64,000 nt of DNA from the human T2T-CHM13v2.0 reference genome, Homo sapiens. The notes under the pieces were generated by a model, which searched no databases, had not been told where the DNA came from, and was given only the letters and a program-made list of their open reading frames with translations. The position numbers and the translations under genes were made by a program. The stretch lies in the NCBI RefSeq assembly GCF_009914755.1, contig NC_060933.1. One strand, given 5' to 3'. Positions within the stretch are counted from its first letter, which is position 1. Each line of letters opens with the position of its first letter. Positions 21,101 through 63,861 of this stretch are shown here, in pieces.

Positions 21101-22449
21101 TCAAAGAGAAAGTAGAATGATGGTTGTCCCCAGGGCCTGGGGGAGGGAAGAATGGCAAGTTAGTGTTTAACAGGTAGGTAGAGAATTTCAGTTTTGCAAG
21201 AGGAGAAGAGTTCTGTGGTGGATGGATGGTGGTGAAGGCTGCAAAACAACGTGAATGCACTTAACACCACAGAACTATACACTTAAAAATTATTACAACA
21301 GTCAATTTTATGTTACATATACCTTACCACAACTTAGAAAAAAAAAAGATTGTCTTGTGGCTTACAAAAAGCAAGAGAGTGCTCATCTCCTCTTCTTTCG
21401 AACATTCTTATATCTAATAGTGCATCAAAACAGCTTTTCTCGGGTTAAGACAAGAGAATAATTCTGGGGTAGTCCTCATATGGAAGGTGCTGCATAATAT
21501 AGTCAACATCTAAAAAATTCCAAGTACAAACATCCAAACCCAAAATTTACAGCAAAAGAGACAGATGGAATTATTTCAACAACTGTGAGAAAGGCAAGAA
21601 ATAAACAGAACTATTGGTATGTTTAAGTATCAATTTAGGACTCTATAAGCTAATTTCTAAAGAGACAAGAAAGTCCACGGAAAAAAATGATTGGTCCATG
21701 TAGAGTAGATTTCATATATCAGAGTCAAGGTCTCACAAAACAACTTTACTGTTTTGAAACTTTAAAGAAGTGTCAACTTGCATTAAATAAACAAAGCAAC
21801 TGCCATGTACTAAACAAAAATGTCACAAATGACAGTCCTGTATAATGACCTGGTTTCCCAGTGGCTCAGAAAGATGGAAAATAAACCCCAAGGACCCTAG
21901 TTCAGACAGACTGAAGAGAGCAGACCGTGGCTGTCTTGCATGATTAAAGGCTATGTCACAGCTCAGTAGGGTCCATGCTTTCATAGCTTCCCCCCCCCAG
22001 CAACCCCTAATGTGACTAGGACTGGGACAAGAGTGACAGTCTCACAAAGGGGATAAAAAGACATAAAGCTTCTTCCTCATACATCCAAACACTCCAGAAT
22101 CTAAAACTTCACTTCTCTGTTGTCCATCTATCCAATTTTCATTAAGAGCAATTTATATCATATAGAGGCTTCAAAGTCAAATATGCCACTTTTATTTTTA
22201 CCTTATCAAACCTATAAAATCAAGACCAAGGGTTGGTCTGGATATGAAGCTTGGTTAGGATCACAATAAATTTTCAAATCAAATAATTGGTTTCAGTTAG
22301 AGCCAAGTTTATCAACAATAGGGTGATTTAGGATTCAGGAAAAATCGGCTGCCTATTTGTATTTCAGAAAGACTAGTATTTCTTCTGACACAAGTAGAGA
22401 GGTGTAAGCAACCTCTGGGTGGGTAATGCCACCAAACAAAAGCAACACC

Positions 22450-22700
22450 TTCAAAGTCTCTCAGTGACTAGAGGCAGCCAGACACTCAAACTGCCAGTCC
22501 TGAATTACGGCCTCTGAATGGTGAGGGCTTCACATTTCACCGATCAGGGCACAGCCCAATCAGAAGACAAACCCCTGCACTGCCAGGGACCAGCAAATCC
22601 GCTTTCTTCCAGTGTGCACATGACTAAATGTGCTTCTGTCCATCATCTGGGTCATATATAGTTCAATGCGAGCTGAGCAGACAGGGCTGCAAGGAAATCT
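22450..22700 (+). promoter_or_regulatory. Core promoter of the pri-miR-181a-2/b-2 host gene: CCAAT (22556-22560), AP-1-like TGACTAA (22621-22627), TATATA (22655-22660) inside a DR5 element
   Basis: Motif order and spacing fit a CCAAT/TATA promoter upstream of a strong donor, within a 4.6 kb repeat-free island with locally raised CpG. Confidence 0.65.
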
Positions 22701-22989
22701 GGCGCGGTTCAATACCTCGTCTAGCCTGGGTTCCAGTATCTAATTTTTTTTTTGTTTTAACTGACAAACTCATTTCTCTACTGGGACAGGATGCTGTGCT
22801 GGCTGGAAGTTCCATTTCTACAGCAAGAATCCTATCTGGAAACACAGAAGTTGTCCTCTAGCCACAGCAGCTCGAACTTTTTTGATTGTCGTTGCTGCTT
22901 TCTCCCATCACCCCCATCCCCTTTTGACAAAGATCCAACTGTAAAAAGTCTTACGTAACAGTTCAGGACTACTTCGGTTCTTTTACTGG
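22684..22989 (+). ncRNA. MIR181A2HG: MIR181A2HG exon 1 (TSS approximate)
   Basis: Starts ~30 nt after TATATA (22655-22660) and ends at the strong donor CTGG|GTAAGC. Repeat-free. Confidence 0.7.
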
Positions 22990-23379
22990 GTAAGCACTTT
23001 CAATTTTTTTTTTTTAACTAAAAGCCATTTTAAAATTGAATCTGTTGAGGGGCTTGACTAAAATCTTTTAAGTAATTTGTGTAATGGAATACTGTCAGTG
23101 GATTTTTTCGTCTCATTTCTGCACGTGCTCCTTTGTTCTCAGAACAGAAGCTTTTTATACACATCCCATAACGCAGCTGGAGAGAGTTATGAAGTCAGTT
23201 ATTATAAGGAACACAAAGGTTGCTTTCCATTCTTTGCCTTTAGATAATTAATTTTTTTGTTTTCTTAAAATGGAGTATTTAAAGAAGGAAGAAATTCACA
23301 AGAAATAAACTGTTGGAGAATTTAGAAAAGTTTGAAGTTTTTACCACCTTTTCTATCTCTAGTTTTGTGTGGCCAAACA

Positions 23380-54942: not shown

Positions 54943-56689
54943 CACTCTTAGCTAATTTAACCCTTAACTTTTTTTAACCCTTAGACTTTATCCTTGCACC
55001 GAGTATATAAACCCCTTAGCCAAACTCACTTAAAAAACCCAAATGTGTGCTCAAACTTGCTTGATGATAAAAACTAAAGAACTTAAAGGAATGAGGATGA
55101 TGAAGGCCATTATGCCATGATACACAATTATTTCAAATACAGTGGGCAACACCCCATGTCATTCCAGAAACCTACCTTTCTGTAGTTTTTCAAGTCTGTG
55201 AAAAGCATTCTTTTTAGAATGCTATGAATTTAAGGAATAATATTTTGTAAGCATCTAAAGGTTTGGTGAAGTCAAAATCAGTATTTTTTTTAAAGTCTAA
55301 ATATTTATCCAAATAGTATAAGGCTTGACATCGCTTTATATTATTGGACCAAGAGGAAGACTTTTTAAAATAAACCCATTAAAAAGTTTTAAACATATTA
55401 CACAGTTACAGTTGCCTGATTTTTTGTGTGTGTATACAATTTACTGTCATAACACTGAAAACTCAACAAAGCTGGCTAATGCAGAGTTTTGACAGAGGGT
55501 GAATTAAACTGATATAGAAGGTAAACAGTTTACATTCAAACCTAAATCTCAGTGGTTGATATTTTTTCTTTTAACGTGTACCATTTGGCTGCTTTAAAAA
55601 TGAATTTGAGACCAGTCAGCCTTTAGTATTTAAACCTAAAGCAAATAGTAATAACTATCCCCATTTAGAGATTAACTTCAATTCAGCAGGCAGTTCTGTA
55701 AGCCCTTTTCCTATTAAGTATTCCTAGATCTGTCCCATTGTAAATCACATATTCTGAAGATTCATATTATTAATTCATTTTTCAAATTTTTCATCACAGA
55801 CATTCAACAGAATCAAAAATAACCACTATGTCCTATAATGTACTGGTATCGTTTCAGCCAGAACAAATGACATCTGACATTTTAGTTACACTCTGTGTTC
55901 TCAACTAAGAAGAAATGCAAGCTTTACATTAGGTGGTGGGTTTTTGGTTTATTTTTTGCTTTTTCAATATGGAAAATAGCTTGTGGACTATCACTAACAC
56001 CTCTGTGGTAACTTAGTAATGCAGGATCTCAGCAAAGGAGATCATCAATCATGGAGGTCGAGGTTTTTCATCTTCCCCTATGACCTCACCTATAGACCTA
56101 CCTGCTATTATTATAGGCAAACAAGTAGAAGAAATTTACATGTTTGACTTTGGCTCTGCAGTGATGGGTCTACTCCTAGATATCAACAGTAAGTTCTGTA
56201 GTAGACAACAGAAGCAGTATGATGAGTGAGCACTGGAAACATGAAGTCCAGTATTCAAATTCTGGCTTATAACCTTGGCTCCTGGCAATGTAACTTTAGG
56301 CAAATCACTTCAAGTTTTTTCATCAGGAAAATGTGGGTTGTTGAGAATTTAATGAGATAAAATATACAAATCCTAGTATATAGCAGATCCCCAATATATG
56401 TTAATCTCTTACCCTTGTTAACAATTAAAATACTACTGCAAAATCAGGTATTTTACATTTTTAGAATCACAAAATAATACCATTCAAAGACATTTTCTCA
56501 GACATTCATTTGAGTCTGCTTGTACAAATTACTGCACAGTCTATCCCACAGTTCATTAGTTCTCTGCTGCACACAAATTGATTTTATAATTTAAATACTC
56601 TCGACTTGAAACCCAGAGAGGAATGTAAGAGCATCCATCAGCGGTGGTCTCACTGCTCACTGGTTCTTGGGATGTGGATGGGAGAATGA

Positions 56690-56799
56690 AGAAGGGCTAT
56701 CAGGCCAGCCTTCAGAGGACTCCAAGGAACATTCAACGCTGTCGGTGAGTTTGGGATTTGAAAAAACCACTGACCGTTGACTGTACCTTGGGGTCCTTA
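56690..56799 (+). ncRNA. MIR181A2: pre-miR-181a-2 hairpin; mature miR-181a-5p at 56728-56750 (AACATTCAACGCTGTCGGTGAGT), miR-181a-2-3p at 56766-56787 (ACCACTGACCGTTGACTGTACC)
   Basis: Matches the miR-181a mature and 181a-2 precursor sequences as I recall them. The arms are complementary (AGGACTCCAAGG...CCTTGGGGTCCT). A CNNC motif (CGAC, 56804-56807) lies ~17 nt past the 3p end. Confidence 0.98.
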
Positions 56800-62566: not shown

Positions 62567-62880
62567 ATGCAGAATCTACCTACATTCGGCTGAAAATCAG
62601 ATGGAAGAATCCACAGAGGAAAGGAAGGAAAGGCGAACTGTCCTGTGGAAAGCACAGCTGCAGGGATAGTAGAAAGTAACAGGCTCTCGATCCGTGGGAG
62701 GTGGTCACTTTGGAGGACAGATAAGTCATCCTCAGAGAACGAACACAATGAAGGAAATTCCAGCCTATTCATGTTCTCCTCTCAGGCTGTACCTCAACAA
62801 GATCCAACTGGACTTTGTGATCTCATAACCTGTCAAGGGGCCTGGCATGGAGTAGATAATAAATGTTTTTTTTAATCAAA
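62567..62880 (+). ncRNA. MIR181A2HG: MIR181A2HG terminal exon (an alternative acceptor at 62493|62494 is possible)
   Basis: Acceptor TTTCTTTTAG|ATG, a purine-rich exon-like body, then AATAAA at 62858-62863 followed by T-rich sequence. Confidence 0.6.
62858..62863 (+). terminator. Polyadenylation signal AATAAA of the host transcript
   Basis: Canonical hexamer followed by T-rich downstream tracts (62865-62920). Confidence 0.6.
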
Positions 62881-63861
62881 TGAATTTTTAACTTTTTTTA
62901 TCAAACGAATTTTCTTGTAATTTCTAGCACAATTATATTTATAACTTAGGAAGTAATCTTCTCCTTGAACCAAGCACAGGATACCTTCAGCTATCTATCT
63001 GTCCCACACATTGCAGTTTCAGCCTATATATAATTTTAATAGCTACCAAATATCAGGATAAAATTATCCTGGCTATACTTGCCACAGAACCCATGAACTT
63101 ACACTGTAGCCCAACTTCCCTTCCTGTTCTTCAGACTAAATCTACTGAAAAACACACAACCAATCAAAATCGTATGCCCTTTTCTCTCCTCTTCCCAGTA
63201 AGTAGTTGGGGCAAAAAACGGTAGGTATAGAAGAAATCGCTTGAAATACAAGAGTCAGAAAATCTGAATTTAAGTTCAGCTAAGTTCAGCTCTGCCCTGA
63301 TTATGTATTCGTGGTCAAGCCAGTCACCCTGTTTAAGTCTTACTTCTCTGTAAAAGGACGACTAAATATACCCTCTCCATCTCAGATGTGAAAAAGCGCT
63401 CTGCAAACAGCACAAGGTATAGGCCAAAGTATCCTAGTCTCTGATGGTGCTGCTCCACAGGTACAGACAAGTAGTTCAGACAAGATCCTCTCACTACCCA
63501 AACTCTTGCCTACTTGTCAACCAGCAGTATATGTGTGCAAGATGTCTGGATAAAGTTAACCCATAACCCAGGGTTAAAAGAAGGCCTTTTCTGCATGTAA
63601 GTGTCATCAGACTGGATGGGAAATATCATTCACTCTAGGTCCATCAGTAGCAACTCCAAACACTTGAGTCACCTCCCAAACAAGAAGTTGCTATTATACT
63701 CTGTAGTGGGGTAGGACACAGGGTAAGGCTTTGGGATTATAAGCTTCCAAGGTGAAGAATAATGACATAGCAAATAATCAGTGGGGCCCCATCTGATCAA
63801 TGAACTTAAATCATTTTGTCAAGACGTCCCTTCCTTTTCCTGCTTCCAGCCAATCTTAAAT

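What the first reader, a model, noticed from the sequence alone, without database searches (positions are those of the whole stretch)
22645..22665. The host-gene TATA box is the spacer of a perfect DR5 retinoic-acid response element
Seen: GGGTCA-TATAT-AGTTCA (22649-22665) fits RGKTCA-N5-RGKTCA exactly, and the candidate TATA box (TATATA, 22655-22660, ~30 nt before the inferred TSS) occupies the spacer. The first half-site with its 5' flank, ATCTGGGTCA, also fits the ROR/REV-ERB motif AWNTRGGTCA. Known: DR5 is the canonical RAR/RXR element, and the RARB2 DR5 sits next to its TATA box. Inference: RAR/RXR (or PML-RARA, ROR, REV-ERB) and TBP contact the same 20 bp, giving a core-promoter switch for miR-181a/b inside a nuclear-receptor gene. 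I cannot confirm whether this element has already been described.
Basis: partly seen in the sequence, partly recalled or inferred. Interest (0 to 1): 0.8.

Follow-up and report, generated by a model that had tools for sequence, protein, structure and literature searches.

The report
DR5 motif straddling MIR181A2HG TATA box
The TATA box of the human miR-181a2/b2 host-gene promoter really does sit between two hexamers that spell a textbook retinoic-acid-receptor site, but nothing available here shows that a receptor uses it, so for now it is a TATA promoter with an untested motif match.

Summary
The sequence is as described. GGGTCA-TATAT-AGTTCA lies at 22649-22665 (+). TATATA starts 29 nt upstream of the RefSeq MIR181A2HG start at 22684, so the DR5 spans -35 to -19.

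As a motif it is not above chance:
- One DR5 in 64 kb arose in 19 of 100 shuffles.
- The genome holds 5,867 such DR5s against 8,318 for a backwards control.
- It holds 26 with a TATAW spacer against 26 for the control.
- The ROR/REV-ERB-type match is also at chance (5 found, 3.62 expected).

Only the position is unusual. The element overlaps the core promoter of a CpG-poor, unique-sequence TATA promoter. In RARB2 the DR5 ends 6 nt before the TATA box.

No other vertebrate genome was available for conservation, and no occupancy data could be reached.

The indirect literature leans against a locus-specific RARE. ATRA lowers all four miR-181 members in NB4 cells and none significantly in HL60 or U937. 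PML-RARA is reported to raise miR-181a, which is the opposite of simple TATA occlusion. The chr1 paralogue's promoter region has no such element.

Best reading: an ordinary TATA core promoter whose flanks are an untested candidate nuclear-receptor site. No searchable paper prints the sequence.

The parts
22649..22654 (+). 5' hexamer GGGTCA (position -35 to -30). It would take RXR if the element is a DR5 RARE.
   Evidence: for the sequence. RXR-5'/RAR-3' polarity on DR5 is from passages of PMC7515732.
22655..22660 (+). TATATA, the candidate TATA box. Bases 22655-22659 are the 5-nt DR5 spacer. An 8-bp TBP site (22655-22662, TATATAGT) runs 3 nt into the 3' hexamer.
   Evidence: The first T is 29 nt upstream of the RefSeq TSS at 22684 (hub annotation). 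It is one of 97 TATAWA on the + strand of the window.
22660..22665 (+). 3' hexamer AGTTCA (position -24 to -19). It is identical to the 3' hexamer of the RARB2/HOXA1-type DR5 and would take RAR.
22645..22654 (+).
   Evidence: one of 5 matches in the window against 3.62 expected, so not enriched.
22706..22711 (+). Third same-strand hexamer GGTTCA at +23 to +28. Like the 3' hexamer, it is followed by AT, so the heptamer GTTCAAT occurs twice.
   Evidence: 22649-22711 is the only stretch of the window with 3 same-strand hexamers within 63 bp. My back-of-envelope expectation is about 0.3 such clusters per window.
22684..22989 (+). MIR181A2HG exon 1. Its 5' end is the TSS that the TATA box would position.
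   Evidence: Hub annotation (NR_038975.1). The donor gtaagc directly follows 22989. The TSS lies 34,006 nt upstream of the MIR181A2 hairpin at 56690.
22556..22560 (+). CCAAT box (agcCCAATcag) at about -128. This is ordinary upstream promoter furniture.
   Evidence: read directly. The motif name is recalled.
22616..22627 (+). E-box-like CACATG (22616-22621) overlapping an AP-1-like TGACTAA (22621-22627), at about -68 to -57.
   Evidence: read directly. The motif names are recalled and were not tested.

Best explanation
The element is the TATA-box core promoter of MIR181A2HG, the primary transcript of miR-181a-2 and miR-181b-2. TATATA at -29 positions TBP/TFIID so that RNA polymerase II starts at about 22683-22684. 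Promoter strength and inducibility come from upstream sequences; a SMAD3/4-dependent region at -402 to -301 has been published. The two hexamers flanking the TATA box spell a perfect DR5, but this is most likely an incidental motif match, or at most a secondary site. If a receptor dimer does bind, the DR5 (-35 to -19) covers the DNA that TBP and TFIIB need, so binding should exclude the pre-initiation complex and repress rather than activate.

Shown: the sequence, its register to the annotated TSS, the CpG-poor unique-sequence context, and motif frequencies at chance level.

Inferred: TBP use of the TATA box, mutual exclusion, and absence of receptor function.
For: - Sequence and register: plus the hub annotation.
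- The promoter is CpG-poor: CpG o/e 0.22-0.36 and GC 0.43-0.47. I recall this as the class in which TATA boxes are typical.
- A consensus donor follows exon 1.
- In passages of PMC12054384, the Lutz group is said to have mapped the MIR181A2B2 TSS and found SMAD3/4 transactivation.
- In section 7 of PMC7840179, -402 to -301 is needed, and the -150 construct is 2600-fold weaker than the -606 construct.
- In passages of PMC9498520, deleting or CRISPR-activating the mouse host-gene promoter changes miR-181a2/b2 expression.
- Motif counts at chance.
- No DR0-DR10 element in the 10 kb around the expected promoter of the chr1 paralogue.
- ATRA lowers all four family members in NB4 and none significantly in HL60 or U937.
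Against: - The register is rare. A perfect DR5 whose spacer is the TATA box of a real TSS is expected well under once per genome by my rough estimate.
- Both hexamers are strong RAR/RXR types. The 3' hexamer is identical to that of RARB2.
- A third hexamer lies 40 nt downstream, in the only such cluster of the window.
- A perfect motif in an active, accessible promoter is the kind most often occupied in ChIP-seq. This is recalled general knowledge.
- miR-181a/b do respond to ATRA and PML/RARalpha in APL cells.
- Neither conservation nor occupancy was tested, so non-function is not shown.
Confidence: 0.6

Rival explanations
1. This is a real DR5 retinoic-acid response element. RXR (5' hexamer) and RAR (3' hexamer), or PML-RARA oligomers, bind at -35 to -19 and compete with TBP/TFIIB for the core promoter. 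Receptor occupancy then gates transcription of pri-miR-181a2/b2.
For: - Exact fit to (A/G)G(G/T)TCA-N5-(A/G)G(G/T)TCA (consensus as stated in PMC7515732).
- The 3' hexamer equals that of RARB2.
- Rare register over a true TATA/TSS (hub annotation).
- miR-181a/b fall with ATRA in NB4 and depend on PML/RARalpha.
- No earlier study reached here examined this promoter for RAR. The APL study's 'miR-181a2 promoter' primer maps to 56204-56230, beside the hairpin.
Against: - Motif frequency equals chance, both genome-wide and for TATAW spacers.
- The direction is wrong for occlusion. PML/RARalpha is reported to raise miR-181a and ATRA to lower it.
- All of miR-181a-d fall together, and HL60 and U937, which I recall as expressing RARA, show no significant change.
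- The paralogue has no counterpart.
- No paper links MIR181A2HG to retinoic acid in its title or abstract, and none prints the sequence.
Confidence: 0.2
2. Another nuclear receptor uses the hexamers. One option is ROR or REV-ERB as a monomer on ATCTGGGTCA. Another is a DR5-tolerant dimer such as NR4A-RXR, COUP-TF, TR2/TR4 or CAR-RXR; that list is recalled. The receptor could either block the TATA box or help pre-initiation complex assembly, as described for NURR1 on the TH promoter.
For: - ATCTGGGTCA fits AWNTRGGTCA.
- Precedent: in the passages of PMC13359966 that I read, the NURR1 site NL1 overlaps the TH TATA box, is positionally conserved in human, mouse and rat, and was the site most needed for transactivation of rat Th.
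- Three same-strand hexamers lie within 63 bp.
Against: - The RORE pattern is at chance (5 against 3.62).
- The distal A/T-rich part of the fuller ROR consensus, as I recall it, is only partly met (TCATCT).
- No occupancy or expression data were reached for any of these receptors at this locus.
Confidence: 0.12
3. The A/T core with its flanks (TCATATATAG) serves a different A/T-binding factor, such as a MEF2- or SRF-like one, in some tissues. The hexamers are irrelevant.
For: By eye only: CATATATAG is one mismatch from a MEF2-type YTAWWWWTAR and two from a CArG box. Both consensuses are recalled.
Against: There is no exact match to either consensus, and no supporting data of any kind were found.
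Confidence: 0.03

Closest known systems
RARB2 promoter betaRARE (DR5 next to the TATA box)
   Same: Both are a direct repeat of RGKTCA hexamers with a 5-nt spacer. The 3' hexamer AGTTCA is identical. Both lie in the proximal promoter of a TATA-containing gene.
   Different: In RARB2 the DR5 (GGTTCA-CCGAA-AGTTCA) ends 6 nt (CTCGCA) before TATATTAG, so receptor and TBP can sit side by side. Here the TATA box is the spacer itself, so co-occupancy is unlikely. The RARB2 element is experimentally established (recalled); this one is untested.
NURR1 (NR4A2) site NL1 overlapping the TATA box of tyrosine hydroxylase
   Same: A nuclear-receptor hexamer element overlaps a TATA box at about -30/-35 (passages of PMC13359966).
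   Different: NL1 is a monomer NBRE, not a DR5. It is reported as positionally conserved in human, mouse and rat, and as needed for transactivation. None of this is known for the MIR181A2HG element.
Ordinary CpG-poor TATA-box core promoters of tissue-restricted genes
   Same: TATAWA lies about 29 nt upstream of the TSS, with a CCAAT box upstream, low CpG o/e and unique sequence.
   Different: Nothing, except that the flanks happen to match receptor hexamers.
Published MIR181A2B2 / lnc-Nr6a1 promoter (SMAD3/4- and TGF-beta-responsive)
   Same: It is the same promoter. The TSS is 34,006 nt upstream of the hairpin, which matches the 34.0 kb I recall from the Presnell 2015 abstract. The review passage confirms TSS mapping and the SMAD3/4 response.
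   Different: In everything I could read, the published regulation concerns -402 to -301 and SMAD/TGF-beta. No retinoid or nuclear-receptor site at the TATA box is mentioned. Presnell 2015 itself could not be read.

Membership tests
DR5-type retinoic acid response element (RXR-RAR) | Two (A/G)G(G/T)TCA hexamers in direct orientation separated by exactly 5 nt | tested here: met
   exact match at 22649-22665. The consensus is as stated in PMC7515732.
DR5-type retinoic acid response element (RXR-RAR) | Occurrence above chance expectation | tested here: not met
   19 of 100 shuffles gave at least 1 DR5. Genome counts are 5,867 against 8,318 for the control. With a TATAW spacer they are 26 against 26.
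DR5-type retinoic acid response element (RXR-RAR) | RXR-RAR binding in vitro and occupancy in cells | not testable with these tools
   No ChIP-seq or EMSA data were reachable. The mouse F9 RAR/RXR supplements mention Nr6a1 only in expression tables. One of the 11 files was not searched.
DR5-type retinoic acid response element (RXR-RAR) | Confers retinoic-acid responsiveness on the linked gene | tested here: inconclusive
   Literature only. miR-181a-d fall with ATRA in NB4 but not in HL60 or U937, and results in neuroblastoma are mixed. Mature miRNAs also come from chr1, so the locus is not resolved.
DR5-type retinoic acid response element (RXR-RAR) | Conservation of hexamers and spacing in other vertebrates | not testable with these tools
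   Only the human assembly is held. The Lalevee 2011 list of conserved DR5s is not held. The supplement with mouse guide RNAs could not be read. The paralogous chr1 promoter region has no DR0-10.
TATA-box core promoter | TATAWA motif 25-35 nt upstream of a transcription start site | tested here: met
   TATATA at 22655-22660 and the RefSeq TSS at 22684 (hub annotation). The TSS was not verified independently by CAGE here.
TATA-box core promoter | The start site belongs to a real spliced transcript | tested here: met
   Exon 1 ends at 22989 before gtaagc. The host promoter drives the miRNAs in mouse. Human promoter constructs are active.
TATA-box core promoter | TBP/TFIID binding and TATA-dependent initiation | not testable with these tools
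   This needs a TBP footprint or ChIP and TATA mutation.
   The pattern is met at 22645-22654 but is at chance: 5 against 3.62 expected, and 33 of 100 shuffles gave at least 5.

The most novel reading that the evidence does not exclude
The MIR181A2HG core promoter is a built-in either/or switch. An RXR-RAR (or PML-RARA, or other DR5-binding receptor) dimer and the TBP-TFIIB complex compete for the same 17-20 bp. Retinoid-receptor occupancy would then directly gate initiation of pri-miR-181a2/b2 from inside the NR6A1 gene. A DR5 whose spacer is the TATA box does not appear in any paper I could search.
Probability: 0.12. Interest if true: 0.6.

Novelty: new member of a known kind. Interest (0 to 1): 0.3.

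Why it matters
miR-181a/b tune T-cell receptor sensitivity, NK-cell and endothelial biology, and leukaemia. How the chr9 locus is switched on and off is only partly known (SMAD/TGF-beta). A receptor site lying on the TATA box would give a direct, drug-addressable control of one of the two loci through retinoids or rexinoids. It would also be a clean natural case of competition between a nuclear receptor and TBP. If the hexamers are incidental, which is the likelier case, the finding is a reminder that a perfect DR5 occurs about 5,900 times in the genome and is not evidence of retinoid control.

Tried and rejected
- **Conservation.** The supplement of PMC9498520, which has mouse guide RNAs within -300/+100 of the TSS, was too large to read.
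- **Primary papers not held.** Presnell 2015, Brauer-Hartmann 2015, Lalevee 2011 and a Blood 2021 PML/RARalpha target atlas, whose DOI I recalled.
- **Sequence in print.** The 17-mer, its reverse complement and two substrings were found in 0 papers. That search covers CC-licensed PMC and bioRxiv full text only.
- **Literature links to retinoic acid.**
  - MIR181A2HG plus 'retinoic': 6 papers, none with both terms in title or abstract.
  - miR-181 plus 'retinoic acid response element': 14 papers, none about this site judging by the listing. One of them was read and was irrelevant.
  - miR-181 plus TATA box plus NR6A1: 4 papers, none relevant by title.
  - miR-181 plus retinoic acid plus RARalpha: 109 papers, 25 listed. 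Three of those were opened and none gives a cis mechanism.
- **Repeat or transposon origin of the promoter: rejected.** 22500-22760 and 22350-22990 match only themselves in the genome.
- **Paralogue test.** The 10 kb around the expected MIR181A1HG start has no DR0-DR10, and none of its 20 TATAWA has a hexamer nearby. The TSS position there rests on a recalled distance of 78.3 kb, so this negative is soft.
- **PPARalpha 'DR3' of miR-181a2 (PMC5645307).** It lies in the pre-miRNA and is a different element.
- **C/EBPalpha sites of Zhuang 2014.** One primer maps to 56204-56230 and the other primer tried found no match. This is a different region.
- **F9 RAR/RXR ChIP-seq supplements.** Nr6a1 appears only in expression and GO tables, and there are no Mir181 entries.
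- **Other genomic DR5-TATAT loci.** The other 13 share no flanks with this one. Across all 14 matches, 9 have two identical hexamers; this locus does not.

Full report
**Observation.** The window reads ...ccatcatctGGGTCATATATAGTTCAatgcgagctgagcagacagggctg....
- GGGTCA-TATAT-AGTTCA at 22649-22665 (+) is the only match to RGKTCA-N5-RGKTCA on either strand of the 64 kb.
- TATATA occupies 22655-22660. With the RefSeq start of MIR181A2HG at 22684 (hub annotation), its first T is 29 nt upstream and the DR5 spans -35 to -19.
- An 8-bp TBP-type site (22655-22662) runs 3 nt into the 3' hexamer.
- Exon 1 ends at 22989 directly before gtaagc, a consensus donor.
- The TSS lies 34,006 nt upstream of the MIR181A2 hairpin. 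I recall 34.0 kb from the abstract of Presnell 2015, which I could not read.

**Chance.** As a motif, the element is unremarkable.
- One DR5 per window arose in 19 of 100 dinucleotide shuffles (mean 0.21) and in 17% of 200 first-order Markov simulations.
- The RORE-type pattern occurs 5 times against 3.62 expected (33 of 100 shuffles gave at least 5).
- All DR, IR and ER arrangements with spacers 0-10 together give 6 matches against a simulated mean of 4.24 (27.5% of simulations reached 6). Four are DR2s with the AGGTCAGGAGTTCA-type sequence that I recall as the Alu DR2, and one is a DR4 at 63273.
- In the whole assembly there are 5,867 DR5 matches against 8,318 for the same pattern read backwards.
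- With a TATAT spacer there are 14 against 21. With a TATAA spacer there are 12 against 5. That makes 26 against 26.
- The other 13 TATAT-spacer loci share no flanks with this one. Of all 14 matches, 9 have two identical hexamers; this locus does not.

What is unusual is only the register, a perfect DR5 whose spacer is the TATA box of an annotated TSS. My rough estimate, which is not a tool result, multiplies a few thousand TATA promoters by about 2-4e-6 per register. That gives about 0.02-0.05 expected cases for DR5, and perhaps 0.1-0.2 if any receptor-dimer arrangement would have been accepted. This is suggestive, not decisive.

**Context.**
- The promoter is CpG-poor: CpG o/e 0.22 over -500..0 and 0.36 over -200..+200, with GC 0.43-0.47.
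- It is unique in the genome. 22500-22760 and 22350-22990 match only themselves, so it is not a recognisable repeat or LTR.
- Upstream lie a CCAAT box (22556-22560) and an E-box/AP-1-like pair (22616-22627), read with motif names recalled.
- A third same-strand hexamer, GGTTCA, lies at +23..+28 (22706-22711). 22649-22711 is the only stretch of the window with three same-strand hexamers within 63 bp. I estimate about 0.3 such clusters per window by chance.

**What is published about this promoter (as far as I could read).**
- A review (passages) states that the Lutz group mapped the miR-181a transcription start sites and that the MIR181A2B2 promoter is strongly transactivated by SMAD3/SMAD4.
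- Section 7 of PMC7840179 used -606 constructs. The region -402 to -301 is required, and truncation to -301 or -150 lowered activity 30- to 2600-fold. The core region that should still hold the DR5/TATA is therefore nearly silent alone in HEK293T. I could not verify that their +1 equals 22684.
- In mouse (passages of PMC9498520), deleting or CRISPR-activating the lnc-Nr6a1 promoter changes miR-181a2/b2, and no separate promoter marks were found at the hairpins.
- Two earlier 'miR-181a2 promoter' studies looked elsewhere. The PPARalpha DR3 lies in the pre-miRNA. The C/EBPalpha ChIP primer of the APL study maps to 56204-56230, beside the hairpin.
- No searchable paper prints the element or substrings of it (0 papers). 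None of 6 papers containing both MIR181A2HG and 'retinoic' has both terms in title or abstract.

**Retinoid evidence.** This comes from review passages only.
- ATRA lowers miR-181a/b in NB4 cells, and PML/RARalpha raises miR-181a.
- All four family members (a-d, three loci) fall together in NB4.
- HL60 and U937 show no significant change.
- In SK-N-BE neuroblastoma cells, ATRA raised miR-181a and lowered miR-181b.

This pattern fits a trans or differentiation-linked effect better than one cis element on chr9. The direction is also opposite to what a receptor sitting on the TATA box would predict. The primary paper (Brauer-Hartmann 2015) was not held. Whether it reports PML/RARalpha binding at either locus remains open.

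**Comparison with RARB2.** The DR5 I recalled for RARB2/HOXA1, GGTTCA-CCGAA-AGTTCA, occurs twice in the assembly, on contigs 3 and 7. At the contig 3 locus, the DR5 is followed by CTCGCA (6 nt) and then TATATTAG.

On a DR5, RXR takes the 5' hexamer and RAR the 3' hexamer. The two DNA-binding domains touch each other, and RXR touches the backbone of the last spacer nucleotide (passages of PMC7515732). From established knowledge, TBP binds and sharply bends the minor groove of the 8-bp TATA element, and TFIIB contacts both flanks. I therefore infer that receptor dimer and pre-initiation complex cannot share this DNA. If the site is used, it should act by exclusion.

There is a precedent for a receptor element overlapping a TATA box and still activating. 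The NURR1 site NL1 of tyrosine hydroxylase is reported as positionally conserved in human, mouse and rat (passages of PMC13359966).

**Paralogue.** The MIR181A1 hairpin lies on contig 1. The 10 kb around its expected host-gene start has no DR0-DR10 on either strand, and none of 20 TATAWA has a hexamer within -25/+40. The start position rests on a recalled distance of 78.3 kb upstream, so this negative is soft.

**What could not be done.** No other vertebrate genome is held. The list of conserved DR5s in Lalevee 2011 is not held. The mouse guide-RNA supplement could not be read. The F9 RAR/RXR supplements mention Nr6a1 only in expression and GO tables, and one file was not searched.

**Verdict.** On the interpretation I cannot tell.
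- Most likely (0.6): an ordinary TATA core promoter of a known gene whose flanks happen to spell a DR5.
- About 0.2: a real RXR-RAR site acting by competition with TBP.
- About 0.12: use by another receptor.
- About 0.03: a different A/T-binding factor.

The candidate element itself appears undescribed in the literature I could search. It is cheap to test with an alignment and public ChIP-seq tracks.

Noticed in passing
window 63273-63288 (+): A perfect DR4, AGTTCA-GCTA-AGTTCA (I recall DR4 as the thyroid-hormone/LXR-type spacing), lies about 400 nt downstream of the last MIR181A2HG exon (62567-62877). It is the only DR4 in the window, and the total count of receptor-dimer motifs is at chance.
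   Followed up: no
window 22661-22667 and 22707-22713 (+): The heptamer GTTCAAT occurs twice, 46 nt apart, once in the 3' hexamer of the DR5 and once in the +23 hexamer (AGTTCAATgc and GGTTCAATac). I do not know whether this reflects a small duplication or a shared factor site.
   Followed up: no
window 22615-22633 (+): A short inverted repeat, GCACAT...ATGTGC, encloses an AP-1-like TGACTAA and overlaps an E-box-like CACATG at about -60. It could be a composite upstream factor site (motif names recalled).
   Followed up: no
window 47827 (+), 31500, 34064, 45809 (-): Four DR2 matches of the AGGTCA-GG-AGTTCA type (TGAACTCCTGACCT, plus one variant). I recall this as the well-known Alu DR2. They make up 4 of the 6 receptor-dimer motif matches in the window.
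   Followed up: partly
L016 1474-1490 (own genome, contig 3): In the RARB2 promoter, a second DR5-like element, GGGTCA-TTTGA-AGGTTA, lies about 11 nt upstream of the canonical DR5. Its 5' hexamer is the same GGGTCA as in the window's element.
   Followed up: no
own genome, 12 places listed and 13: Twenty-five other DR5 matches genome-wide have a TATAT or TATAA spacer. No annotation was available to see whether any of them also sits at a transcription start.
   Followed up: partly
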